DNA of 64,000 nucleotides from Eledone cirrhosa (Eukaryota): contig OZ024741.1 in NCBI GenBank assembly GCA_964016885.1, positions 297,600,001-297,664,000 on the forward strand, given 5' to 3'. Shown in pieces: positions 14,732-64,000 of this stretch. The notes under the pieces are model-generated. The model ran no database searches. It was not told where the DNA came from and saw only the letters and a program-made list of their open reading frames with translations. The position numbers and the translations under genes were made by a program. How positions within the stretch are numbered: the first letter of the stretch is position 1; each line of letters begins with the position of its first letter.

Positions 14732-17235
<2,504 letters not shown>

Positions 17236-20200
17236 GAATATAGACATAGAATATTCGAAAATATTCTGTATGTTTATAATAAACATTTTGAAGACCTAAT
17301 CGCTATAGAATAGAATACGTCACGTATTACAATTAGATTCTCGATAAAAGCAAGGGAAGTAATCTACGCGTTTCATTCTCGTTAGAAATCATCAGGACTA
17401 CATATCCAGTGCTTTTATCGAGAATGACACAGCTAGAGACTTATAGAATACTTAGCTGTGTACAGGAACTGGTTTGAAAGAGCGGTTGCCGGTCCGGCAG
17501 AAATTAGAAATTGGAATAAATGCTCTGAAATAGCGATATATATGTGAATATAGACATAGAATATTCGAAAATATTCTGTATGTTTATAATAAACATTTTG
17601 AAGACCTAATCGCTATAGAATAGAATACGTCACGTATTACAATTAGATTCTCGATAAAAGCAAGGGAAGTAATCTACGCGTTTCATTCTCGTTAGAAATC
17701 ATCAGGACTACATATCCAGTGCTTTTATCGAGAATGACACAGCTAGAGACTTATAGAATACTTAGCTGTGTACAGGAACTGGTTTGAAAGAGCGGTTGCC
17801 GGTCCGGCAGAAATTAGAAATTGGAATAAATGCTCTGAAATAGCGATATATATGTGAATATAGACATAGAATATTCGAAAATATTCTGTATGTTTATAAT
17901 AAACATTTTGAAGACCTAATCGCTATAGAATAGAATACGTCACGTATTACAATTAGATTCTCGATAAAAGCAAGGGAAGTAATCTACGCGTTTCATTCTC
18001 GTTAGAAATCATCAGGACTACATATCCAGTGCTTTTATCGAGAATGACACAGCTAGAGACTTATAGAATACTTAGCTGTGTACAGGAACTGGTTTGAAAG
18101 AGCGGTTGCCGGTCCGGCAGAAATTAGAAATTGGAATAAATGCTCTGAAATAGCGATATATATGTGAATATAGACATAGAATATTCGAAAATATTCTGTA
18201 TGTTTATAATAAACATTTTGAAGACCTAATCGCTATAGAATAGAATACGTCACGTATTACAATTAGATTCTCGATAAAAGCAAGGGAAGTAATCTACGCG
18301 TTTCATTCTCGTTAGAAATCATCAGGACTACATATCCAGTGCTTTTATCGAGAATGACACAGCTAGAGACTTATAGAATACTTAGCTGTGTACAGGAACT
18401 GGTTTGAAAGAGCGGTTGCCGGTCCGGCAGAAATTAGAAATTGGAATAAATGCTCTGAAATAGCGATATATATGTGAATATAGACATAGAATATTCGAAA
18501 ATATTCTGTATGTTTATAATAAACATTTTGAAGACCTAATCGCTATAGAATAGAATACGTCACGTATTACAATTAGATTCTCGATAAAAGCAAGGGAAGT
18601 AATCTACGCGTTTCATTCTCGTTAGAAATCATCAGGACTACATATCCAGTGCTTTTATCGAGAATGACACAGCTAGAGACTTATAGAATACTTAGCTGTG
18701 TACAGGAACTGGTTTGAAAGAGCGGTTGCCGGTCCGGCAGAAATTAGAAATTGGAATAAATGCTCTGAAATAGCGATATATATGTGAATATAGACATAGA
18801 ATATTCGAAAATATTCTGTATGTTTATAATAAACATTTTGAAGACCTAATCGCTATAGAATAGAATACGTCACGTATTACAATTAGATTCTCGATAAAAG
18901 CAAGGGAAGTAATCTACGCGTTTCATTCTCGTTAGAAATCATCAGGACTACATATCCAGTGCTTTTATCGAGAATGACACAGCTAGAGACTTATAGAATA
19001 CTTAGCTGTGTACAGGAACTGGTTTGAAAGAGCGGTTGCCGGTCCGGCAGAAATTAGAAATTGGAATAAATGCTCTGAAATAGCGATATATATGTGAATA
19101 TAGACATAGAATATTCGAAAATATTCTGTATGTTTATAATAAACATTTTGAAGACCTAATCGCTATAGAATAGAATACGTCACGTATTACAATTAGATTC
19201 TCGATAAAAGCAAGGGAAGTAATCTACGCGTTTCATTCTCGTTAGAAATCATCAGGACTACATATCCAGTGCTTTTATCGAGAATGACACAGCTAGAGAC
19301 TTATAGAATACTTAGCTGTGTACAGGAACTGGTTTGAAAGAGCGGTTGCCGGTCCGGCAGAAATTAGAAATTGGAATAAATGCTCTGAAATAGCGATATA
19401 TATGTGAATATAGACATAGAATATTCGAAAATATTCTGTATGTTTATAATAAACATTTTGAAGACCTAATCGCTATAGAATAGAATACGTCACGTATTAC
19501 AATTAGATTCTCGATAAAAGCAAGGGAAGTAATCTACGCGTTTCATTCTCGTTAGAAATCATCAGGACTACATATCCAGTGCTTTTATCGAGAATGACAC
19601 AGCTAGAGACTTATAGAATACTTAGCTGTGTACAGGAACTGGTTTGAAAGAGCGGTTGCCGGTCCGGCAGAAATTAGAAATTGGAATAAATGCTCTGAAA
19701 TAGCGATATATATGTGAATATAGACATAGAATATTCGAAAATATTCTGTATGTTTATAATAAACATTTTGAAGACCTAATCGCTATAGAATAGAATACGT
19801 CACGTATTACAATTAGATTCTCGATAAAAGCAAGGGAAGTAATCTACGCGTTTCATTCTCGTTAGAAATCATCAGGACTACATATCCAGTGCTTTTATCG
19901 AGAATGACACAGCTAGAGACTTATAGAATACTTAGCTGTGTACAGGAACTGGTTTGAAAGAGCGGTTGCCGGTCCGGCAGAAATTAGAAATTGGAATAAA
20001 TGCTCTGAAATAGCGATATATATGTGAATATAGACATAGAATATTCGAAAATATTCTGTATGTTTATAATAAACATTTTGAAGACCTAATCGCTATAGAA
20101 TAGAATACGTCACGTATTACAATTAGATTCTCGATAAAAGCAAGGGAAGTAATCTACGCGTTTCATTCTCGTTAGAAATCATCAGGACTACATATCCAGT

Positions 20201-21886
20201 GCTTTTATCGAGAATGACACAGCTAGAGACTTATAGAATACTTAGCTGTGTACAGGAACTGGTTTGAAAGAGCGGTTGCCGGTCCGGCAGAAATTAGAAA
20301 TTGGAATAAATGCTCTGAAATAGCGATATATATGTGAATATAGACATAGAATATTCGAAAATATTCTGTATGTTTATAATAAACATTTTGAAGACCTAAT
20401 CGCTATAGAATAGAATACGTCACGTATTACAATTAGATTCTCGATAAAAGCAAGGGAAGTAATCTACGCGTTTCATTCTCGTTAGAAATCATCAGGACTA
20501 CATATCCAGTGCTTTTATCGAGAATGACACAGCTAGAGACTTATAGAATACTTAGCTGTGTACAGGAACTGGTTTGAAAGAGCGGTTGCCGGTCCGGCAG
20601 AAATTAGAAATTGGAATAAATGCTCTGAAATAGCGATATATATGTGAATATAGACATAGAATATTCGAAAATATTCTGTATGTTTATAATAAACATTTTG
20701 AAGACCTAATCGCTATAGAATAGAATACGTCACGTATTACAATTAGATTCTCGATAAAAGCAAGGGAAGTAATCTACGCGTTTCATTCTCGTTAGAAATC
20801 ATCAGGACTACATATCTAGTGCTTTTATCGAGAATGACACAGCTAGAGACTTATAGAATACTTAGCTGTGTACAGGAACTGGTTTGAAAGAGCGGTTGCC
20901 GGTCCGGCAGAAATTAGAAATTGGAATAAATGCTCTGAAATAGCGATATATATGTGAATATAGACATAGAATATTCGAAAATATTCTGTATGTTTATAAT
21001 AAACATTTTGAAGACCTAATCGCTATAGAATAGAATACGTCACGTATTACAATTAGATTCTCGATAAAAGCAAGGGAAGTAATCTACGCGTTTCATTCTC
21101 GTTAGAAATCATCAGGACTACATATCCAGTGCTTTTATCGAGAATGACACAGCTAGAGACTTATAGAATACTTAGCTGTGTACAGGAACTGGTTTGAAAG
21201 AGCGGTTGCCGGTCCGGCAGAAATTAGAAATTGGAATAAATGCTCTGAAATAGCGATATATATGTGAATATAGACATAGAATATTCGAAAATATTCTGTA
21301 TGTTTATAATAAACATTTTGAAGACCTAATCGCTATAGAATAGAATACGTCACGTATTACAATTAGATTCTCGATAAAAGCAAGGGAAGTAATCTACGCG
21401 TTTCATTCTCGTTAGAAATCATCAGGACTACATATCCAGTGCTTTTATCGAGAATGACACAGCTAGAGACTTATAGAATACTTAGCTGTGTACAGGAACT
21501 GGTTTGAAAGAGCGGTTGCCGGTCCGGCAGAAATTAGAAATTGGAATAAATGCTCTGAAATAGCGATATATATGTGAATATAGACATAGAATATTCGAAA
21601 ATATTCTGTATGTTTATAATAAACATTTTGAAGACCTAATCGCTATAGAATAGAATACGTCACGTATTACAATTAGATTCTCGATAAAAGCAAGGGAAGT
21701 AATCTACGCGTTTCATTCTCGTTAGAAATCATCAGGACTACATATCCAGTGCTTTTATCGAGAATGACACAGCTAGAGACTTATAGAATACTTAGCTGTG
21801 TACAGGAACTGGTTTGAAAGAGCGGTTGCCGGTCCGGCAGAAATTAGAAATTGGAATAAATGCTCTGAAATAGCGATATATATGTG
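17236..21886 (-). repeat. Tandem array of exactly 15 x 310-bp hammerhead-containing units (non-LTR retrozyme-like)
   Basis: Period 310 (17236, 17546 ... 21886). Units are essentially identical (one C>T at 20817). One HHR per unit on the - strand. Confidence 0.92.
17359..17401 (-). ncRNA. Type I hammerhead of the 310-bp unit (repeats every 310 bp)
   Basis: GTAGTC-CTGATGA-T TTCT aacg AGAA T-GAAA-CGCG-TA-GATTAC, plus a distal 16-bp stem from 17337-17352 and 17410-17425. Confidence 0.88.
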
Positions 21887-22104
21887 ATATATATATCATA
21901 TTTATTATATATATATATATAATATATATGATATATATATTATATATATATATATATAATATATATATTATATATATACATATATAATATATATATAATA
22001 TATATATTATATATATATATATAATATATATGTATATATATATAATATATATATTATATATATATATAATATATATGTATATATATATAATATATATATA
22101 TATG

Positions 22105-27503: not shown

Positions 27504-29693
27504 ATTGGAATAAATGCTCTGAAATAGCGATATATATGTGAATATAGACATAGAATATTCGAAAATATTCTGTATGTTTATAATAAACATTTTGAAGACC
27601 TAATCGCTATAGAATAGAATACGTCACGTATTACAATTAGATTCTCGATAAAAGCAAGGGAAGTAATCTACGCGTTTCATTCTTGTTAGAAATCTTCAGG
27701 ACTACATATCCAGTGCTTTTATCGAGAATGACACAGCTAGAGACTTATAGAATACTTAGCTGTGTACAGGAACTGGTTTGAAAGAGCGGTTGCCGGTCCG
27801 GCAGAAATTAGAAATTGGAATAAATGCTCTGAAATAGCGATATATATGTGAATATAGACATAGAATATTCGAAAATATTCTGTATGTTTATAATAAACAT
27901 TTTGAAGACCTAATCGCTATAGAATAGAATACGTCACGTATTACAATTAGATTCTCGATAAAAGCAAGGGAAGTAATCTACGCGTTTCATTCTTGTTAGA
28001 AATCTTCAGGACTACATATCCAGTGCTTTTATCGAGAATGACACAGCTAGAGACTTATAGAATACTTAGCTGTGTACAGGAACTGGTTTGAAAGAGCGGT
28101 TGCCGGTCCGGCAGAAATTAGAAATTGGAATAAATGCTCTGAAATAGCGATATATATGTGAATATAGACATAGAATATTCGAAAATATTCTGTATGTTTA
28201 TAATAAACATTTTGAAGACCTAATCGCTATAGAATAGAATACGTCACGTATTACAATTAGATTCTCGATAAAAGCAAGGGAAGTAATCTACGCGTTTCAT
28301 TCTTGTTAGAAATCTTCAGGACTACATATCCAGTGCTTTTATCGAGAATGACACAGCTAGAGACTTATAGAATACTTAGCTGTGTACAGGAACTGGTTTG
28401 AAAGAGCGGTTGCCGGTCCGGCAGAAATTAGAAATTGGAATAAATGCTCTGAAATAGCGATATATATGTGAATATAGACATAGAATATTCGAAAATATTC
28501 TGTATGTTTATAATAAACATTTTGAAGACCTAATCGCTATAGAATAGAATACGTCACGTATTACAATTAGATTCTCGATAAAAGCAAGGGAAGTAATCTA
28601 CGCGTTTCATTCTTGTTAGAAATCTTCAGGACTACATATCCAGTGCTTTTATCGAGAATGACACAGCTAGAGACTTATAGAATACTTAGCTGTGTACAGG
28701 AACTGGTTTGAAAGAGCGGTTGCCGGTCCGGCAGAAATTAGAAATTGGAATAAATGCTCTGAAATAGCGATATATATGTGAATATAGACATAGAATATTC
28801 GAAAATATTCTGTATGTTTATAATAAACATTTTGAAGACCTAATCGCTATAGAATAGAATACGTCACGTATTACAATTAGATTCTCGATAAAAGCAAGGG
28901 AAGTAATCTACGCGTTTCATTCTTGTTAGAAATCTTCAGGACTACATATCCAGTGCTTTTATCGAGAATGACACAGCTAGAGACTTATAGAATACTTAGC
29001 TGTGTACAGGAACTGGTTTGAAAGAGCGGTTGCCGGTCCGGCAGAAATTAGAAATTGGAATAAATGCTCTGAAATAGCGATATATATGTGAATATAGACA
29101 TAGAATATTCGAAAATATTCTGTATGTTTATAATAAACATTTTGAAGACCTAATCGCTATAGAATAGAATACGTCACGTATTACAATTAGATTCTCGATA
29201 AAAGCAAGGGAAGTAATCTACGCGTTTCATTCTTGTTAGAAATCTTCAGGACTACATATCCAGTGCTTTTATCGAGAATGACACAGTAGAGACTTATAGA
29301 ATACTTAGCTGTGTACAGGAACTGGTTTGAAAGAGCGGTTGCCGGTCCGGCAGAAATTAGAAATTGGAATAAATGCTCTGAAATAGCGATATATATGTGA
29401 ATATAGACATAGAATATTCGAAAATATTCTGTATGTTTATAACCGCTCTTCCAAACCAGTTCCTGTACACAGCTAAGTATTCTATAAGTCTCTAGCTGTG
29501 TCATTCTCGATAAAAGCACTGGATATGTAGTCCTGAAGATTTCTAACAAGAATGAAACGCGTAGATTACTTCCCTTGCTTTTATCGAGAATCTAATTGTA
29601 ATACGTGACGTATTCTATTCTATAGCGATTAGGTCTTCAAAATGTTTATTATAAACATACAGAATATTTTCGAATATTCTATGTCTATATTCA
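27504..29693 (-). repeat. Second 310-bp HHR array (about 6.2 units, HHRs from 27663 every 310 bp) ending in an inverted copy 29441-29693 (HHR 29527-29569 +)
   Basis: Same unit as the 17236 array with two fixed differences (CTGAAGA core, AACA loop). Inversion junction at 29441. Confidence 0.92.
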
Positions 29694-41957: not shown

Positions 41958-42347
41958 ATTAGAAAATATATAGCTTTCACCGTATTTTTGACTAAAGGAA
42001 TTTTAGCCTGATATTGGGGTTTATCTGAGGGTTCTAAACCCCGTTATCAGGCTAAAATTCCTTTAGTCAAAAATACGGTGAAAGCTATATATTTTCTAAT
42101 TTCAAACTCGTTCACTGTTTCAAAACATACTTACTTGCCATTTAAACTCGCTAAGTATGTAGTTTCTAATTTGAATGGAAAGAGATGGGTGATGTGTTGG
42201 TGTAATGGTAGCACAGTGGTCGCGATAACCAAAGATGTGAGTTCGACTCCCATGTATGTCAATACTCATCTTTTTCCATTTATCTGAGGGTTCTAAACCC
42301 CATTATCAGGCTAAAATTCCTTTAGTCAAAAATACGGTGAAAGCTAT

Positions 42348-52659: not shown

Positions 52660-55600
52660 CGAGCTGACGGGTAAACAGATGATAAGAGAAGACAGGTAAA
52701 AGAGAAAATGACTGTATTGGATATTTGTCTGGTTACAGTATGAGGCAAGTCCGTGGTGTCTGTGTGATACAAAAGAACAGTAAAAAAATCTTCCAGATAT
52801 ACCAGATTCTTCGTTGTACCGTTTGTGCATAGTATATGAACAATTCTCGGTGCTCCCACCTAGAATAGTGACCTCTAGGAGATGGTTCATCTTCTGCCTG
52901 ACTGTAAAACGTGTATCATTGCATAGACGTGGTTGTTCCACGTTTCTCAAAAGGATGGTGGAAGTTCCAATCTTTTATATTATATGTAGATATAGATATA
53001 GATAATTAATATAAAAGATGTCCGTCAATGTAAAAAAGGTCCCTATTTACTTGAAATCGTTTATACAAATGCCAAATTAATATGGATATGGATAACATGC
53101 TTATCTATAAGTGGTCAGCTATAATAATTGTTTCAACAAATTATATGACACAAAAATTTATTCAGTAATTTCCAGGCTTTTAGCCACTGAGTAATAGACA
53201 GTCAATGTTGCCCAGAGTCAACTCGGGGAGGTGGCCTGGTTTGAACTCTAAATGGCGGATCCTTCTACTTCGATAATAGAATCGTTTTTCAATATTACTC
53301 TAGCCCTGGCCGGCCATAGGATCCAACCTTTTTACCAGACTCAGCATATGATGAGGTTTTATTACCACCGCAATCAGAAGCGATAAATTTGAAGGCAATT
53401 TCTACCAATACCTGTTGGTTTTTATTGCTCATTATCGACAATAAATGACATTGGACAGAAATGATAACTCTGTCAAAGCTCACAATACTGATCAAAGGAC
53501 ACCAATGTCCGAATCATTTACGTCGCTTATTGATAGCATTAAATATATGCATACATCAGCTCAAAGCTTCATTATAGACAATATTCAGGGTTGTTCCTCT
53601 GTTAGTGGTATCAATTGCAAATTTTATACCATCAGGATCGCACACTCAAGATGCAGCAACATACAGTTGCCCATGGCTGAATGCTGGATCATTCAAGTAG
53701 ACACTGACTCGCTTGAAAGTCTGTCCCTGTGCCTTGTTGACAGTCATGGAGAAGGCCAAATCAATGGCAGCAGATCTTCACTTGGTCTCAGCATGATCCT
53801 CGGAATGAGAACCGATTCCTCTCTGCCTGGGAGTTTAGCTTCTAAAACTCTTCTGTTAATCAATCTCTCAACAATCAATCTGGTACCATTGCAAAGACCC
53901 ATTTTATGATTGATATTTCTAAGCAATATAATCGGCATACCCTTTTTCAACCTCAAAATATGTGGGGGAATCCGGGTATTTGAAGTGAATTCAGATACTC
54001 AGTCGGAACATCCATATCGTCGTTCTGCTGATTAGGCTCCATTGCATCCGCACTGACGGTCAACCATTCCTCTCCAGGAAACATTCCGGCTACTTGTGAA
54101 TTTATTTCATCCACCGTTGCATTCGTATGAGTTAGAATAACGCGTTCCGATATCCAGGAGATATTCTGCCAAAAAGCATTCAAATTAGGGAACACCCAGT
54201 CAATCAATGCTTGGCGGTCCAGTGGCATGACCAAATGGTCTGGGATTCTTACAGTCTGATTATCACCAACGTGTGGCAATTCATCGTTTCCCAACTGCAT
54301 CAACCATCGGCCGTATGTCTCAGCCTCTTCGTTTTGCCCGAACATACGAAGTCGCATATTATCGTGTAATCGCAAAACTCTGAAATGGCGCCACAACGGG
54401 GACTTTTTCAGGCATGCATTGACAATTTGCGCTCTTTGAGCATTCCTAACGATAGTCTTACCACCGAATGGCAGGTCACTACCGCAGATATCTCTCAAAG
54501 TTCTGTGCAATGCCTCCAGCAAATATCTGTGTGCCATTGGAGCCTCGTCCCAAATAATCAGAGACGTATTGCGTATAAGGCCCGCGAGTTTACTTTGTCC
54601 TGTAATGTTACAGACACTCAACTCATCCGGAGCCAATGGAACCTTGAAGCATGAGTGGAAGGTCCTTCCACCACTCAGCAAAGTGGCAGCGATACCACTG
54701 GTGGCCACAGGGAGGGCAATCTTCCTCTGAGCTCTGACTGCCGATAACAGAGTGTTGAAACAGAATGTCTTTCCGGTGCCTCCTGGAGCATCTATGAAAG
54801 CACAAAGTTGCTCATTAGTGGAAATCGAGTGGAGAACGCCATCGACCAATTCTCTCTGAGATTGGGTCAACATTGGCATACGTTCATCCACAATACGTTG
54901 CTGCTCAGTGGATCAAATTGGAATAGTTCCCTCCGATCGAGTGAAATCTCATGTTCAATGCTAGGACACGTTGCCGTATTTCTTCATCAGGAATTGGCAA
55001 ATTGAAATCTGTTAAACATTTGAAATGAACTTCAAGCAGTTGCTCAATATTGAGCAAAACAATAGCTTTCATCAAATTTTCATCATCGACCTGAAGATGA
55101 TGCCTAAAATCATCAGCCATAATTTCCCAATGGCGTTCAAATAATCTCTTGGATCGGCAGGATTGCAGAATCCTAGAATCGTGACAAACAACTGCCTTAT
55201 TTGAGCTGGCATCTGTGTTGTTCCTGCAGCTTCCATGGCGTTATTCCATTCAGCGTCATTCTGAAGGAGTCCCAGATGCTAACACACAGTCTGGTATGTT
55301 TCTTATTCCACGCCATTGATTGTTTTCAAATCAGCGAAGCTCTGTTTACCTCTCGAAAAATCATTATGCAACAGAATTCGGAGATAAAACACATCACCAG
55401 ATGCTGCATGGACATTACAAACCCGTCCAATAGTCATGAATATAAACTTTTGTTTTCTATCATTCCATTTCTTTCCCTTCTTATCCCACATATAGTGCGA
55501 AGGAAAATCGCAGTAGAGTTGCCTTTGATCGGGGTTCAAAGCATGTTCCCTATTATGCTTGAACCACTCAGTCAATTCCATCTTAGGAGGTGGTGCGTTA

Positions 55601-57964
55601 GCAATTCTTTCGACACATCTTCTAGTGTCCTGAAAACAGACCATTTGCTATTCTCTAAGTGAACACTGGGTTTGCGATCATTGAGATCAAAATCGAACAA
55701 TCTCCAGCAAGCTTCGCTAGATCCAATCGAGAGAACATCCTGGAACCTGCCAACTTCATCTCCTTGGTTCGCTTCCTCATTCCTGACATTGATCATTGCC
55801 CGATCATGACATTTGTAAACATATTTGAATAGATATTTGCAAACTTTCACTGAGCTACAAATTTCCACATTAATATGACAACGATATTTCATAATCAAAT
55901 ATGGATTGTATGGCACAACCCATTGATTTGTAACCTGTCGACCGTTTACATTTTCGACCAAACCGCCATCTGCAGGCGACCGTCTTCTGTATGAGGGATG
56001 AGCATCCCCATCGTTCCAGGAAGTGTTCGTGACAAAAGATTTCGGAAAGTGCTTACTGCATTGGCCATGTTTCATGCAAGGCGCTTTCCGATTTGCCACT
56101 CCGCATAGGTTGTGCACCATTGACTTTGCCACCAAGTTGCGTAGTGCCTCATTCTCCAGCAGTTCAGCACACACAATGCTGTCGACATCCTCAGCACATC
56201 TCAATCTGCAATCTCTATGTAAAATGATCAGCAAATGTGCATGTGGCAATCCTCTTTTTTGGAATTCAATTACGTATGTAAAAGCAACTATACCTCCAAA
56301 GATTCCCTTTTTCCACATCATCCATTATCTTTTTCAGATATCCACAATATCAGGACGGTCCTTTGGCTGTTGTCCTGGCAAAAGTGCATCCTTAATATCA
56401 GTCCATTCAGGATTGCATGTAACCGTTATAAACAAATCTGGCTTTCCAAACTTTCTGACAATAGCCATTGCATCCTGATAGCGAATGTTCATATATCTCG
56501 GGCCGCTGTTGAACGACGATGGCAAAATGATGCGTCGACCAATTTGCTTGTAATTGTCATCATCGGCTGTTATCGCATCCTATATATTATTATACAATTC
56601 AGCTCTGATATGTTGCTGATGTGTAGCTATATAATTTAGCCTTTGATTTTCGATCTTTGCGAATGCCATACAACAGTATTCCTGGAACAATCTGCTGGCT
56701 TGAAATAGCGCATTTCTCTGTTGATTCCTCTCGTTCAAATGGAACGCGTAAAAGTCGCGAATCAAATTATTGTGTCTATTGCCACCTCCCTGTTGATGCT
56801 GATTCTCATGATCATCTAAATGAACAGACATGTTCCATCCATTTTCACCTTTTGGGAATAAAAGAACATAATGCAATGGATCGTATGCCCTATTTGACTC
56901 ATTGATTGTCTTGACACCACCATCTCTGCGATTGAGGACGATATCTCTCGATCCAGGCTTATCGTCCATCAACACAGCAACTTCACGAAATCCTTCAGGG
57001 GCATTATATCGCCGTTCGTGTTGATTCCTTGGCACTGCGTCAGCCTTAATCACCAATGTTTGCTGCTGAAGATTTTGTAGTTCAGCCACCAACATGAAAT
57101 CCATAACATAAGGATTACACTGTCTAACCCATGATTGCAAATCACGGATCAAATCACTTAACCTTTGCCGTTCAGGTTCAGTTATATTTCCCGGCAACTT
57201 CATCCAACCGATCCTGATATCCTCCTCCGATTCACTATAATCTGGATCGTTAACGTAAATTTGAGCGAATCGAGGCCTCTCTCCTGGGGTAACTTCTAAA
57301 TTACCGATACAACGATACAAACGGCCTTGAATGACTACATTCGGTTGCCATGCACCACTCTCAAACATCACACTAAATCTCTGCGATGCTAAAGCTAATG
57401 AATTGTTAATTTGCCGCGAATATTTGCGCAGTAATCTACCTCGGTCTCCTTGATCACCCCACATACTTAGTATTTTAAACTTCAGTGACTTCTCATCATC
57501 CGGCATTCGCAAGGGTTCTAGTTGAACTGCTCCTTTATGACAGCACATTGTGGTCCACGTCTTTTCGTGCCTCCAAAGCAATGCTCCACAATGTGGACAC
57601 TCTGCTCGTCCACCAATCTGAAAATGACACGGTTGCCATGATCCATTTTTAATATCATTCGTTCGCCTTCTGGCCTCTTACACACGCAAACACTCACACA
57701 TGTTGATAGTTTTTACTTTCTGTGGAACGCTGCACGCACGCATACACACATAAACATACACGCACGTACATACACACGCACACATATTAATAGTTATTGA
57801 ACACAGCGTTCACACTCTCCTCTCTCACTCCCTCATTGGCATTATGAATATTAATTTCAGTTTGGCGTCGTTGAGGTGGGCGGAGTCGTTTGAAACCTAT
57901 GAACCAATGATAATCGAGAATTATGACATACGGAATAATGACGTTCTTGAAATTAATAAATAGA
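52660..57964 (-). mobile_element. Decayed autonomous Helitron (Rep/Pif1-like helicase pseudogene)
   Basis: Rep motifs TVTCNPEW, VIEFQKRGLPHAH, KYLFKYVYK. Helicase motifs APGGTGKT, WDEAPM, NKAQGQT, FSHGQLYVA. 5' TC at 57964-57963. The 3' hairpin is deleted near 52668. Confidence 0.93.
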
Positions 57965-59170
57965 CTAGCTGACGTACCCAGCTTTGCCCGGGTAAACAGA
58001 TGATAAGAGAGGACAGGTAAAAGAGAAAATGACTGTAATGGATGATTGTCTGGTTACAGTATGAGGCGAGTCCGTGGTGTCTGCGTGATACAAAAACAGT
58101 AAAAAAATCTTCCAGATATACCAGATTCTTCGTTGTACCGTTTGTGCATAGTATATGAACAATTCTCGGTGCTTCCACCTAGAATAGTGACCTCTAGGAG
58201 ATGGTTCATCTTTTGCTTGACTGTAAAACGTGTATCATTGCATAGACATGGTTGTCCCACGTCTCTCAAAAGGATGATGGAAGTTCCAATCTTTTATATT
58301 ATATGTAGATATAGATATAGATAATTAATATAAAAGATGATGCTCAGCCAGTTTGTCTTCAACTATTGCAGCCCGCCGTCGCTGCTTGGCTCCAGTGTTT
58401 CGTTGACGTTGTTCAGCCAGCTCCTCTTCATTCATGGCAGCACGTCTTTTCCTCTGAAGTTCGGCGTTCCGATGGCGCTGTTCGGCCCGTTTTTCTTCAT
58501 TCCTGGCTGCATGCCGTTGCCGCTATAGTTCACTGTTTGATAAAGTCGAATTGCTTTTATTATCAGTATTCATTTCGAACAATTGTCAAAAAATGACACA
58601 ATAATAAATACAAAAGATGTCCGTTAATGTAAAGAAAGGTCCCTATTTACTCCCTTCACAACTCTGTGTATGTTAGACTGACAGACAGGCACACAGACAG
58701 ATAAACTGCATGGCGATTGTGGAACGCCGCACGTACACACACATACACGCATAGAAACGCGCACACGCACGCAAACTTACACACGCACCCGTGCACTCAC
58801 ACACGCACCCGTGCACTTACACACACGCACACACTCACACATGTTGATAGTTTTTACTTTCTGTGGAACGCTGCACGCACGCACACACACATAAACATAC
58901 GCGCACGTACATACACGCGCGCACATGTTAATAGCTATTGCTTTCCTTCCCCTCTTATTTCCACACACATCACACACACACATGTCTCTACACTGACACA
59001 TATAGATAGTGTATCCAACACAGCGTTCACTTTGCTTCTCTGTTTCTTACTCTCCCCTCTCACTTCCTCATTGGCATTATGCATATTAATTTAAGTTTGG
59101 CGTCGTTGAGGTGGCGGAGTCGTTTGAAACCTATGAACCAATGATAATCGAGAATTATGACACACGGAAT
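57965..59170 (-). mobile_element. Internally deleted Helitron of the same family, in head-to-tail tandem
   Basis: 3' end ACCCGGGCAAAGCTGGGT hairpin + ACGTCAGCTAG abuts the TC of the long copy. 57990-58338 matches 52669-53018, and 58830-59170 matches 57680-57937. Confidence 0.85.
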
Positions 59171-59184
59171 ACTGATTATACAGA

Positions 59185-59873
59185 GCTTTTAATTAAGCAT
59201 ACAGTGTATTGCAAAATACACTATATATACATTCATATATATATCGCTATTTCAGAGCACCAATTCTAATTTTCAATTTCTGCTTGACCGGTAACCGCTC
59301 TGTATAAGCAGTTCCTGATTATTACTAAGAATTCTATAAGAATCAAACATTCATGATTTTCAGCAAACAAGAGGAGTAATTAGCTTTGATAAGCATAAAA
59401 AAATGCGAAACAGAGCTCTGTCAGCTTCATCTCCCCTGTTTGCTGAAAATTAAAGTAAGTGAGACTGTCACTAATCTAAAACAATAGCATAAGGTCTTCG
59501 AAATGCTTTTAATTAAGCATACAGTGTATTGCAAAATACACTATATATATATATTCATATATATATCGCTACTTCAGAGCACCAATTCAAATTTTCAATA
59601 TCTGCTTGACCGGCAATCGCTCTGTATAATCAGTTCCTGATTATTACTAAGAATTCTATAAGAATCAAACATTCATGATTTTCAGCAAACAAGAGGAGTA
59701 GTTAGCTTTGATAAGCATAAAAAAATGCGAAACAGAGCTCTGTCAGCTTTATTTCCCCTGTTTGCTGAAATCTAAAGTGAGACTGTCACTAAGCTAAAAC
59801 AATAGCATAAGCTCTTCGAAATGCTTTTAATTAAGCATACAGTGTATTGCAAAATACACTATATATACATTCA
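59185..59873 (+). repeat. About 2.1 tandem copies of a 322-bp HHR unit related to the 310-bp family
   Basis: Shares ATATATATCGCTATTTCAGAGCA, GACCGGyAACCGCTCT, CAGTTCCTG, CTAAGnATTCTATAAG and AGGTCTTCnAAATG with the reverse complement of the 310-bp unit. Confidence 0.88.
59382..59426 (+). ncRNA. Variant hammerhead (U3-A8 core); second copy 59704-59748
   Basis: AGCT-TTGATAA-GCAT-aaaaaa-ATGC-GAAA-CAGAGCTCTG-TC-AGCT, with distal stem ATTTTCAGCAAACA/TGTTTGCTGAAAAT. Confidence 0.8.
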
Positions 59874-59891
59874 TATATATATATATATATA

Positions 59892-62632
59892 TAGAAGTGG
59901 TTACACAACAGTTAGTTCATCATACCGAGAATAATTGTTTCACCTTAGCGGAAGTTTTTAGGTTGAAAATGAAATTACAAAGAATCAGTCCGAAGCCTTG
60001 TAGTTATGCAATAGCTGTTTGACGACGTGTGGACAACGTGTGAAAAATTCATTTCTCGTGTTTAGGCAATCACTATTGCGTAATCTCTTTAGAATAGTTA
60101 TTCGTTCGTCAATACATAAGCCACACGACGGATTTCCCCTTGCGTATGGCTTGGACTTAGCGATGGCTTTTCATTGAATGGAGTAGTCTATACTTGAGTC
60201 CTTGAGGGACCATACGTGGCTCGCGAGTTTCGTACATGAACGTCTGTCCGGGCACCTGAAGGTAGACTGGTGGTTCAGGAAACGTTCCTTAAATCGGCCA
60301 TCCGCCATGCCCACATAGGAGTTGACCTCCTGTGGCTCGTTTAGTCGGTTGGAAGTGACCACAGCTTCATAAATTACAGCTGGTGTGTTGCATTGTTGTT
60401 GAAGGGGGAAAGCTTCAGGCTTATGATGGCGAGCCCTAGCTTTTGCGGGCAATATTACAGGCACCAACAACGCCTTCAGCCTGAAATCGAGAGCCTACCC
60501 TCCTAAGGTAACTGAACTTGCTCCTTTCGAGACGGACCTTCTTGACTTAGTCGCTAACGTTTCCTTTCGCAAACACACTAACCCCTTTCAAACGAAACTC
60601 AGAAATGACATTAAGAAATTTAGGTCTTCTAATAACACCTTCGTTCTTTCCGACAAAACTAACAATATTTACGAAGTCGACAACACCACTTTCCGCCACC
60701 TGGCCCATAACGCTATTACTTCTAAATATAAGAAAGCTAACCCTATGGCCTACCACGACATTAATACAGAAGCCAAGGAACTTGCCGCCGCCCTTAAGGT
60801 AGATAAGAAGCTACAATCTCTAGCTAAGCGGGAGGCGTTCCTCACCCTGAAAGATCACAAGGTAGACTTTACTTCTAACCCCACATGTAGACTAATAAAC
60901 CCGGCACGCACAGATATGGGACTAGTCAGTAAGGCCATACTTAGAAACATAGTTAAGACCATTAGGACCAAGTCCAACCTGCCCCAGTGGGAGAACAGCG
61001 ACTCCGTAATTAAGTGGTTTAACTCCTTAAAATCCAAAAAAGCGAAGTTCACACAGTTTGACATTGTCGATTTTTACACGTCGATCTCAGAGACCCTCTT
61101 AAACAAAGCGTTGGACTTCGCTATCACTTATACCACCCTCGATGGTTTAGACAGGGAAATCATCGCTCACTGCCGGAAAACCCTCCACTTCAACGACGGA
61201 GTAGCCTGGGCAAAGAAGTCTACAACTTCAGACCTATTCGACGTCTCCATGGGATCGTTTGACAGTGCTGACTTGGTTGGCCTATTTATCTTAGACATAT
61301 TACGTGTTAGATTCCCGGACTTCCACACGGGAATATACCGTGATGATGGACTGACTTTATCGAGCCATAAAAGTGGTCACGACCTCGACCGGTTTAAAAA
61401 AGAGTTAGCTTCTACCTTCAATGAGTTAGGATTTAGGATAACATTAGCCACCAACCTCTCTAGCGTAGATTTCTTAGACATTAATTTAGACCTTCGCACA
61501 CACACCCACAGACCCTTCCATAAGCTAAACGAGAAACTCAATTACATTCACAAGGACTTATGCCACCCTCCCACTGTTTTTAGAAACTTCGTTAAGAATA
61601 TCAGTACTAGAATCTCAAACCTCTCCTCTAATAAGGCTATCTTTGATAGAGCGGCACCCTACTATTACACGGCGTTAGCTAACAGCGGCTTCTCGCAACC
61701 TATCACTTACTCTCCCAATAACAACAACAGCAATAAGAAAAGTAAGCGTAACAATAGACAGACTATCTGGTTCTCTCCTCCCTTCTCACTCAACGTTAAA
61801 ACCAATGTAGGAAAAACATTTCCAGCCCTCTTAGATAGACACTTCCAAATAGGTCATAAATACCGCTCCATCTTTAACCGACACAAAGTTAAACTAGGAT
61901 ACTCCTGCGCTAAGAACATGAAGGCCCACATCACCAGCAACCCCAGGAGCAACACCCCACCAGGGTGCGCTTGCCCCTTTCAACAGCAATGCAACACACC
62001 AGCTGTAATTTATGAAGCTGTGGTCACTTCCAACCGACCAAACGAACCACAGTAGGTCAAATCCTATGTGGGCATGGCGGAGGGCCGATTTAAGGAACGT
62101 TTCCTGAACCACCAGTCTACTTCCAGGTACCCGGACAGATGTTCATCTACGAAACTCGCGAGCCACGTATGGTCCCTCAAGGACTCAAGTATAGACTACT
62201 CCATTCAATGGAAAGCCATCACTAAGTCCAAGCCATACGCAAGGGGAAATCCGACGTGTGGCTTATGTATTGACGAACGAATAACTATTCTAAAGAGATT
62301 ACGCAATAGTGATTGCCTAAACACGAGAAATGAATTTTTCACACGTTGTCCACACGTCGCCAAACACCTATTACATAACTACAAGGCTCCGGACTGATTC
62401 TTTGTAATTTTATTTTCAAGCTAAAAACTTTTCGGACTTTCGCAGTTATCTCCCTTACACCTCTCGCACGCAGTCTAGTATTGCCTGTGTAAAGTGACAG
62501 GGTTTCTGCACATGCGCGTTCGTACGGTTGTCCTTCCTGTTCCTATAACCATGCCCATTCCGAGCTGAGGATCCGCTAAGGTGAAACAATTGTTCTCGGT
62601 ATGGTGAACTAACTGTTGTTTAACCACTTCTA
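59892..62632 (+). mobile_element. Penelope-like element (Hydra-like) with upstream inverted 3' copy (59892-60415)
   Basis: RT motifs KDHK..F...PTCRLINP, FDIVDFY, MGSFD, YRDDG. GIY-YIG segments VIYEAVV...YVGMAE...FKERF..H and CGLC..E, LNTRNE. Stop at 62053. Inverted partial copy is typical of PLEs. Confidence 0.92.
62555..62604 (+). ncRNA. Minimal hammerhead in PLE 3' pseudo-LTR
   Basis: CCATt CCGAG-CTGAGGA-tCCgctaaGGt-GAAA-CAATTG-TT-CTCGG tATGG. Confidence 0.82.
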
Positions 62633-62715
62633 CCTAACTCGTCCCACTACGGATATTACGGACAAAGAGAGTAAGAAATGTGTGTGTATTGTGTGTGTGT
62701 GTGTTTGGTACACGT

Positions 62716-62753
<38 letters not shown>

Positions 62754-62754
62754 C

Positions 62755-64000
62755 TGTCCAAAAGACAGAACTATATACACAGATTGACATCTCTAATGCC
62801 GGAGAATTGCTAAGAGATGCCAAGCAATATATAACTTTTGGGGAGAATGGCGCTGTTAGCATCACTTCTCCCAACAAATTGCGTAGAGACACTGTCCTGA
62901 AAACCATAGTTTTTAGGACAATCTCAAATACCACCAGAAAACCAGCTCAATTAACTCAAAACGAAATTGAGCTGGTTCTAAGAAACTCCATGAAGGACAT
63001 TACCTTCATACAGAAGGGAAAACTCTTCGGGAGTTTATCAATAATAATGAAAGACCAATTGACGGCACAGAAATATTCTGTGTCGCCAATTGTGTCCCCC
63101 TCTGCACCTTTTCCCCCACATATATGGGAAAAAGGACCCCAAAAATAAAAGTAACAAATATCACACCAAATGTAAACATGTGGTGGATATTAACTGGTTT
63201 CATCAATTTTGATGAAGATACAGTAATTTCGGTAGGAAAGTCCTCTAGGGGCATATTCAACGGTACAAGCTTAGAAGTTCTGGTCCAAATGAGACCAGAA
63301 CGGATAGCTAGTATACAACAACGTGTGCCTCTGGATGGAAATTCCAACATAAACATTTCTGTTGAGGGTAGGCGGCCTTCATGTTACCAGTGTTTAAGCA
63401 GTGGTCACATGAAGGCTTCCTGTCCTCAATTAACTGCATTAAAAAAGGCACTACTGCCGACACCCAACACAACAACACAACCAACACCACCACCACAACA
63501 GCAACAACACACAAAAATAACAAAAACAAACCAAACTGCAAACACAGTCCCACCCAACCCGTCCCCACCTAAAACAACTCCCAAAACACCGACAAGCACA
63601 ACAGCTCCCCCAAACATACCCCTCCCCAATCAAACAGACACCACAACGGACGAAGCCCCCTAGTCATCACTCAGTGATGATGAGGGAGAACCCCTCCGCT
63701 CCAAAATAAAAAAGAAAAAAAGACATAACACGAACAAAAAGGCAACAAACACACAACCACCAACACAAACAACACAAACATTACAAACAAAAATCCCCCC
63801 TCCCGAAAACAAAACACTCCAAACACAAATACCCACAACAAAACGAAAACACACACAAGAACAACATACAAAAACTAACTCAACACAACAAAAATGTTAT
63901 ACATACATAAACACTGACAATAAAACCTCGTTGGAGGTCATCTCCAAAAACCCTTCCGTAGAAACCGAAGGAAAATATTTTACCAAATGTAAAGACAAAC
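62755..64000 (+). mobile_element. 5' part (ORF1, gag-like CCHC knuckle) of a Tx1/L1-like LINE, running off the window
   Basis: CYQCLSSGHMKASC at 63382-63423, Pro/Thr-rich linker, frameshift near 63120. Confidence 0.7.

What the first reader, a model, noticed from the sequence alone, without database searches (positions are those of the whole stretch)
59185..59873. Sister 322-bp family with a replaced ribozyme module and compensatory U3-A8 catalytic core
Seen: the backbone is homologous to the 310-bp unit, but the HHR domain has unrelated sequence with the same architecture (distal 14-bp stem, internal loop, stem I, palindromic stem III ACAGAGCUCUGU, GUC site). The core reads UUGAUAA instead of CUGAnGA in both copies. 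Established: C3 and G8 form a Watson-Crick tertiary pair, and U3-A8 is the covariant that preserves it. Inference: two changes that restore the pair suggest a selected, functional variant that CUGANGA motif searches would miss. They also suggest a conserved non-ribozyme backbone with an exchangeable ribozyme.
Basis: partly seen in the sequence, partly recalled or inferred. Interest (0 to 1): 0.87.

Follow-up and report, generated by a model that had tools for sequence, protein, structure and literature searches.

The report
Hammerhead core pair that flips repeatedly
This is a copy of a small, protein-free jumping repeat whose hammerhead ribozyme carries a U-A pair where most carry C-G, and the family tree of its relatives in this genome shows that pair switching three times while always staying paired, so the U-A form is likely a working ribozyme, although the ribozyme was not swapped in as a module.

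Summary
The 322-bp repeat and its UUGAUAA (U3-A8) hammerhead core are real. U3-A8 is family-wide, not local decay: 60 of 85 copies picked by backbone alone carry it, 19 carry C3-G8, and mixed states are singletons. The 'replaced module' reading fails. The 310- and 322-type ribozymes align in register, and older families bridge them stepwise. The non-core ribozyme simply evolves fastest, by compensatory changes. Trees built without the 3 and 8 columns need three C-G/U-A switches; one U3-A8 clade is rejected (p=2e-5). Across 13 subfamilies, 10 of 11 other core positions never change. Insertions have two fixed 3' ends, (TA)n targets and inverted 5'-truncated partners, so this is a non-LTR retrozyme, probably moved by Penelope-like enzymes; earlier scan notes said this of the 310-bp family elsewhere in this genome. 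Natural U3-A8 cores are already published (PMC3088659, PMC4209133). I found no paper reporting repeated switching in one lineage. Cleavage, expression and the helper element are untested.

The parts
59185..59882 (+). 322-bp retrozyme array, 2.2 units, ending in (TA)n at unit position 60
   Evidence: end position shared with other copies
59171..59186 (-). 16-nt inverted piece of the unit (matches 59619-59634 reversed) at the 5' junction, as in Penelope-type insertions
   Evidence: read directly from the sequence
59245..59317 (+). most conserved block between families (60 of 73 identical to the 310-bp family); straddles the two preferred 3' insertion ends (unit positions about 60 and 86-89)
59356..59450 (+). 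type I hammerhead, copy 1: distal stem, internal loop, stem I, core, stems II and III
59386..59392 (+). core UUGAUAA, U3 at 59386 and A8 at 59391
59410..59422 (+). palindromic stem III and GUC triplet; predicted cut after 59422
   Evidence: cut site by hammerhead consensus, not tested
59678..59772 (+). type I hammerhead, copy 2 (U3 59708, A8 59713, C17 59744)
59423..59744 (+). predicted 322-nt monomer RNA between the two cut sites; its ends are predicted to pair through the distal stem
   Evidence: z -5.6; inferred, no RNA data
17226..21893 (-). sister 310-bp array (15 units), C3-G8 cores
27504..29442 (-). second 310-bp array (6 units), C3-G8 cores

Best explanation
This is a genomic copy of a non-coding hammerhead repeat (a non-LTR retrozyme) whose U3-A8 core pair is fixed across whole subfamilies and has switched with C3-G8 three times in the family tree, which likely reflects selection for a ribozyme that still cuts. 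Shown: the anatomy, the family-wide core states, the tree, the stem covariation and the insertion pattern. Inferred: tandem transcripts would cut after GUC, probably as double hammerheads joined through the palindromic stem III, releasing a 322-nt monomer whose ends are held together by the distal stem and may ligate to a circle. A Penelope-like reverse transcriptase and endonuclease would then copy it into (TA)n, recognising the conserved terminal block. Only master copies that cut would found new subfamilies, so the core stays fixed, stems drift by compensatory changes, and positions 3 and 8 change only as a pair. The ribozyme domain diverged in place; it was not swapped.
For: Core states: 96 of the first 100 listed (220 matches) with 3 and 8 left free are U3-A8, none C3-G8. 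In a sample picked by backbone only (94 of the first 100 of 1,577 matches; 85 ran to the unit end) 60 are U3-A8, 19 C3-G8, 2 A3-G8, 1 U3-G8, 1 C3-A8, 2 lack a core. An older third family has 64 of 70 U3-A8 and no C3-G8. A basal subfamily pattern gives 77 C3-G8 and 13 U3-A8 in the first 100 of 379; the U3-A8 copies fetched form their own branch. Trees without columns 3 and 8 need 3 changes, forced by well-supported branches (69 rows; 106 rows, bootstrap range 3-3); AU test rejects one U3-A8 clade, p 2e-5. Mixed states never form a supported clade. Over 13 subfamily majorities 3 and 8 always pair (5 C-G, 8 U-A); 10 of 11 other core positions are invariant, against 9 of 77 other ribozyme columns and 54 of 136 flank columns. 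On 61 copies 93.4% of cells pair, 11 of 28 pairs show double changes, and slid controls give 34-44%. Stem III is self-complementary in six of the seven subfamily examples folded, with different sequences; the window's pairs at -20.1 kcal/mol as a dimer and -1.8 as a hairpin. Insertion pattern in 49 loci: 70 of 79 3' ends at two positions (39 at 50-69, 31 at 80-94), 63 of 79 run into a dinucleotide repeat, 32 of 49 loci have an inverted partner, matching the PLE pattern described in PMC8557442. U3-A8 is reported as natural and active in vitro (PMC3088659).
Against: No cleavage or RNA data. The monomer's lowest-energy fold pairs part of the core with stem III, and freeing the core costs about 2.5 kcal/mol. 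No helper PLE sharing the terminal block was found; the abundant PLE beside the array has a dissimilar 3' end. The tree is unrooted and rests on about 270 columns; an earlier backbone-only tree (143 columns) was unresolved and needed 4 changes. The branch to the 310-bp family is long with no intermediates sampled. Position 7 also changes (G to U) near the branch leading to the window's clade, which short-patch copying from an older U3-A8 family could explain. Three events are few. Only 1 of 9 predicted Xenopus retrozyme dimers cut in vitro in a 2026 preprint, so prediction of activity is fallible. Samples come mostly from the first chromosomes listed and from exact patterns.
Confidence: 0.7

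Rival explanations
1. The element is the same retrozyme, but some switches are not new double substitutions: a short patch around the core was copied from a coexisting family by template switching or gene conversion.
For: The early subfamily of the window's clade and the older basal U3-A8 subfamily share the last bases of stem I and the seven core bases, and position 7 changes together with 3 and 8 near that branch. One chimera of a 322-type unit with a PLE tail exists (L031), which template switching could produce.
Against: Any patch would be about 10 nt, since stem II and the bulge follow the vertical ladder. Position 7 varies freely (U, C, G) across subfamilies. This reading still needs both states to be functional.
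Confidence: 0.15
2. The U3-A8 ribozyme is weak or dead and rides along; the element spreads without cutting, and C-to-U and G-to-A changes reflect drift toward A+T.
For: Both changes are transitions toward A+T in an A+T-rich genome. The youngest and largest family (310-bp; most of 16,551 backbone matches; 2.8% divergence) is C3-G8. The core is partly mispaired in the predicted fold.
Against: The rest of the core is invariant in U3-A8 subfamilies while stems covary. Three changes on the ladder require at least one switch from U-A to C-G wherever the root lies. No mismatched subfamily was seen.
Confidence: 0.07
3. The units are solo terminal repeats of an autonomous Penelope-like element and not an independent retrozyme.
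For: The insertion pattern is that of PLEs, and a preprint derives vertebrate retrozymes from PLE terminal repeats.
Against: PLE-like coding matches in the first 180 loci lay apart from the units in the ten loci mapped. The neighbouring PLE family's 3' end is dissimilar, and only 1 of 29 of its loci held a unit, at the edge of the locus. Units occur as head-to-tail multimers.
Confidence: 0.05
4. One reading: a constant backbone accepts unrelated ribozyme modules by recombination.
For: Between the window copy and the 310-bp unit the non-core ribozyme is only 29 of 82 identical. Stem I plus bulge differs sharply between the third family and the basal C3-G8 group (12 of 30) while flanks are 95 of 110 identical.
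Against: In-register alignment and shuffle test; bridging families with stepwise changes; the ribozyme-only tree gives the same ladder as the whole-unit tree for the groups it included.
Confidence: 0.03

Closest known systems
Metazoan non-LTR retrozymes (Cervera and de la Pena 2020, PMC7229834, parts 2-3 of 6 read; Li, Clavereau and Pollet 2026, bioRxiv 10.64898/2026.07.22.740005, parts 1-3 of 5 read)
   Same: 150-450 bp non-coding tandem units, low GC, one type I hammerhead per unit, palindromic stem III, thousands of copies, sister families in one genome, PLEs in the same genome.
   Different: U3-A8 core, not mentioned in the parts read; stem III of 12 nt; repeated switching of the 3-8 pair along a subfamily ladder; RNA and circles not shown here.
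U3-A8 minimal hammerheads of Schistosoma mansoni Cercyon PLEs (Cervera and de la Pena 2014, PMC4209133, parts 1-2 of 4 read)
   Same: Same core covariation, high copy number (about 1,300 hits), link to Penelope-like elements.
   Different: Those are minimal motifs of an autonomous element, mostly single; here full type I ribozymes with long stem III in a protein-free tandem unit, with a tree showing three switches.
Natural U3-A8 hammerheads (Perreault et al. 2011, PMC3088659, passages read), citing in vitro activity from Przybilski and Hammann 2007 (not held; known here only through that citation and recall)
   Same: U3-A8 keeps the 3-8 base pair and is stated to be active in vitro.
   Different: Several scattered examples there; here the state of whole amplified subfamilies.
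Penelope-like elements, insertion structure (Craig et al. 2021, PMC8557442, passages read)
   Same: 5' truncation, partial tandems, inverted 5'-truncated partner, short tail at one end, (TA)n targets.
   Different: No reverse transcriptase or endonuclease in the unit; helper not identified.

Membership tests
Type I hammerhead ribozyme | Three-stem junction with open stem I and closed stems II and III | tested here: met
   (fold with core held unpaired); covariation in all stems
Type I hammerhead ribozyme | Core U4 G5 A6 A9 G12 A13 A14 A15.1-U16.1 and NUH site | tested here: met
   invariant over 13 subfamily majorities
Type I hammerhead ribozyme | Watson-Crick pair between positions 3 and 8 | tested here: met
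   U-A 41, C-G 18, U-G 1, other 1 of 61; strict C3-G8 consensus is not met
Type I hammerhead ribozyme | Loop 1 - loop 2 tertiary contact | not tested
   an internal loop and a 5-6 nt loop 2 are present; contacts not modelled
Type I hammerhead ribozyme | Self-cleavage at the predicted site | not testable with these tools
   needs an assay
Non-LTR retrozyme | Short non-coding tandem unit (150-450 bp) with one type I hammerhead per unit, many dispersed copies | tested here: met
   (1,577 exact backbone matches, a lower bound)
Non-LTR retrozyme | No LTR, primer binding site, polypurine tract or coding capacity | tested here: inconclusive
   no stop-free frame of 90 aa or more lies within the array; LTR-type signals were not searched for specifically
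Non-LTR retrozyme | Expression as linear and circular monomer RNA | not testable with these tools
PLE-mobilised non-autonomous element | Fixed 3' ends with a tail variant, 5' truncation, inverted partner, microsatellite target | tested here: met
PLE-mobilised non-autonomous element | An autonomous PLE sharing the 3' end | tested here: inconclusive
   neighbouring PLE family has the same insertion pattern but a dissimilar 3' end; other PLE families in the genome were not examined

The most novel reading that the evidence does not exclude
This lineage is a natural evolution experiment on a ribozyme active site. The 3-8 pair crossed between U-A and C-G three times by new double substitutions with no amplified intermediate, and each switch was coupled to changes next to the core (stem II closing pair, stem III palindrome). 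The pair would then be a tuning setting that balances cutting against misfolding. For the window's clade, perfecting the stem III palindrome would have made a C3 core mispair with it, favouring U3. Valley-crossing this often could point to an error-prone RNA-level step in the element's cycle.
Probability: 0.3. Interest if true: 0.65.

Novelty: new variant of a known kind. Interest (0 to 1): 0.42.

Why it matters
The element class and the U3-A8 variant are known. What this locus adds is a ladder of natural ribozyme subfamilies, ordered by a tree, in which a catalytic-core pair switches three times and stays paired while the scaffold turns over. That is evidence from evolution that cutting matters for the spread of these repeats, a point the PLE literature leaves open (PMC8557442). 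It also gives ready-made natural sequence pairs on either side of each switch for testing how surrounding stems set tolerance at 3-8. Practically, the sampled proportions suggest that CUGANGA-only descriptors would miss most of this family.

Tried and rejected
Sequencing runs: no RNA holder listed; this says nothing about expression. Contigs of four coded runs laid on the unit showed pieces of the 310-type, C3-G8-type and U3-A8-type units in more than one labelled organism, but no piece spanned the unit and shares were small, so nothing was concluded on host range. Helper search: the PLE at 60427-62640 lies beside the array and its pieces occur near 6 distinct fetched loci, but the family has 52,815 candidates in the genome, so closeness is expected; its 3' end does not resemble the unit. 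Backbone-only tree: unresolved. Polarity count with the 310-bp family as outgroup was even on the backbone (6 against 6); my early reading of a single C3-G8 to U3-A8 origin was overturned by the third family. Misfolding explanation: swapping to C3-G8 in silico raises the cost of freeing the core in 24 of 24 copies with the window's palindrome (3.65 to 6.45 kcal/mol), but lowers it in 11 of 12 copies of another U3-A8 subfamily, and C-G copies also improve on swapping to U-A in 12 of 14, so part is a plain G+C effect; kept as a hypothesis only. The four U3-G8 copies of the third family do not group together, so they are not an amplified wobble intermediate. A search with a 310-like variant returned only a close 312-bp C3-G8 subfamily and no bridge along the long branch. 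Rfam hits other than HH9 were treated as chance. Pfam found no family for the PLE frames. Literature searches for this case: (only PMC4209133 returned, in 11 and 75); general searches. Przybilski and Hammann 2007 and a 2017 paper on PLE-associated dimeric hammerheads were not held. Supplements of PMC7229834, PMC4209133 and the preprint were not seen and may show U3-A8 retrozyme families.

Full report
Setting. The window lies in a 3.0-Gb genome, on a contig of 416 Mb. It holds two 310-bp arrays and, at 59185-59882, 2.2 copies of a 322-bp unit that is about 70% identical to the minus strand of the 310-bp unit.

Observation. The domains fold far better than shuffles (z -6.6 and -5.0) and match Rfam HH9 weakly. 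The 21 cores found in the window's 310-bp arrays are all C3-G8.

Is U3-A8 local decay? No. A ribozyme pattern with positions 3 and 8 left free has 220 exact matches; of the 100 listed, 96 are U3-A8, 2 U3-U8, 1 C3-A8, 1 G3-A8 (counted by eye). To avoid selecting on the ribozyme I searched with a backbone motif: 1,577 matches. I took 94 of the first 100 listed; 9 ended before the unit end and were dropped. Of 85, 60 are U3-A8, 19 C3-G8, 2 A3-G8, 1 U3-G8, 1 C3-A8, and 2 lack a core. So the family holds both paired states on one scaffold. On 61 ribozyme domains (the window copy and 60 of 82 available, mostly leaving out those with indels) 93.4% of cells pair, 11 of 28 pairs show double changes, and slid controls pair at 34-44%. 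The shuffle control there ignores relatedness, and two of its five measures were not above the shuffles.

Was the ribozyme replaced? No. The 310- and 322-type domains align in register with one stem III length difference. Non-core identity is 45-54% against 53-59% in the flanks, and the arms beat shuffles at p about 0.001. Searches for variants turned up a third, older family (260 candidates; 17% pairwise divergence) whose stem I and bulge match the 310-bp family at 25 of 30 positions while its distal stem looks like the 322 type. Further subfamilies fill the ladder from it to the window's clade. Over 13 subfamily majorities only 9 of 77 non-core ribozyme columns are invariant, against 54 of 136 flank columns and 10 of 11 core columns; the one core exception, C15.2, sits in a CpG and is probably decay. 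The scaffold is thus the fastest-changing part of the unit, which explains why it looked unrelated.

How often did the pair switch? The third family is U3-A8 (64 of 70; 4 U3-G8, 1 G3-A8, 1 U3-U8). A basal pattern gives 77 C3-G8, 13 U3-A8, 4 U3-G8, 4 C3-A8 and 2 others among the first 100 of 379. Maximum-likelihood trees without columns 3 and 8 give the order: 310-bp family (C-G), third family (U-A), basal U-A subfamily, basal and mid C-G subfamilies, window's clade (U-A). Three changes are forced by well-supported branches with 69 rows (43 U3-A8 copies left out at random and two deleted copies) and with 106 rows (rows chosen by state; bootstrap range 3-3, bootstrap not fully settled). One U3-A8 clade is rejected (AU p 2e-5). 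Mixed states are scattered tips. The tree is unrooted; divergence suggests the third family is oldest and the 310-bp family youngest (17%, 14%, 11%, 2.8%), which would make U-A the oldest state sampled and the window's U-A a return to it. This ordering is inference. Caveats: a backbone-only tree on an earlier set was unresolved, the 310-bp branch is long, and short-patch copying between families cannot be excluded.

What kind of element? In 49 distinct loci, 70 of 79 3' ends fall at two unit positions about 26 bases apart, 63 of 79 run into dinucleotide repeats, and 32 loci have an inverted partner. The window copy ends at the first position in (TA)n and has a 16-nt inverted piece at its 5' junction. 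PMC8557442 describes this pattern for Penelope-like elements. The block most conserved between families (59245-59317; 60 of 73 with the 310-bp family) straddles these ends, so it is probably the signal read by the mobilising enzymes; this is inference. Size, tandem form and ribozyme type fit non-LTR retrozymes, which a 2026 preprint derives from PLE terminal repeats. A very abundant PLE lies next to the array with its own C3-G8 hammerhead and the same insertion pattern, but no shared 3' sequence. One chimera joins a 322-type unit to that PLE's tail near its cut site (L031); one case does not name the helper.

Mechanism. Inferred from anatomy and the cited papers: a tandem transcript cuts after GUC at 59422 and 59744. 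The palindromic stem III is far more stable between two units (-20.1 kcal/mol) than as a hairpin (-1.8), and self-complementarity is kept with different sequences in six of seven subfamily examples, pointing to double-hammerhead cutting. The 322-nt monomer is predicted to hold its ends together through the distal stem, which would favour circularisation, followed by PLE-driven copying into (TA)n. In the monomer the lowest-energy fold mispairs the core with stem III; an in-silico C3-G8 version makes this worse in all 24 copies with the window's palindrome, but the effect reverses in another subfamily, so this is a hypothesis for one switch only.

Prior art. Natural U3-A8 cores, stated to be active in vitro, are in PMC3088659 (passages); about 1,300 U3-A8 minimal hammerheads are reported for a schistosome PLE in PMC4209133. 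That C3 and G8 pair in the crystal structure is established knowledge, also stated. Searches found no report of repeated switching in one lineage; subscription papers and unseen supplements could hold one. Earlier scan notes on other DNA of this genome reached the same retrozyme and PLE-type reading for the 310-bp family; they were seen after my analysis and their listed lines do not mention the 3-8 pair.

Verdict. Real feature; a new variant of a known kind. Interest 0.42.

Noticed in passing
window 60427-62640 (+), inverted piece about 59890-60300: Penelope-like element with reverse-transcriptase-like and C-terminal GIY-YIG-like frames broken by a stop (clade label Hydra-like is recalled, not tested). 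It has its own C3-G8 hammerhead with a palindromic stem III at about 62561-62600; 52,815 candidates genome-wide; two 3' ends into (TA)n.
   Followed up: partly
L031:1735-1959 (G000:C1, same place as L095): Chimera: a 322-type unit fused to the 3' tail of the neighbouring PLE family within a few bases of that PLE's hammerhead cut site; possible template switch.
   Followed up: partly
window 55572-57677 (-) and 57700-57960, 58840-59170: Helitron Rep/helicase remains (Pfam Helitron_like_N) with a duplicated flanking segment; the 322-bp array starts directly after the second copy.
   Followed up: no
L241-L270, L302-L347: The older U3-A8 subfamilies lack a standard pair at the base of stem II (C-A or A-A), the 310-bp family has U-U, basal C3-G8 has A-U and the window's clade G-C; the closing pair changes along with the core pair.
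   Followed up: partly
G000: The shared backbone motif has 16,551 exact matches, mostly the young 310-bp family in two-armed inverted arrays; a 312-bp variant subfamily exists (L271-L295).
   Followed up: partly
window 42191-42261 (+): tRNA-like match at Rfam gathering score (33.3 bits) inside (TA)-rich DNA; possibly a tRNA-derived repeat.
   Followed up: no
window 62675-63663 (+): Open frames ending in a zinc-knuckle-like CxxC..H..C motif and a proline/threonine-rich tail, gag-like by eye; no Pfam hit for the second frame.
   Followed up: no
G000:C2:208895101-208907555: A cluster of at least eight 322-type U3-A8 ribozymes within 12 kb at irregular spacing.
   Followed up: no
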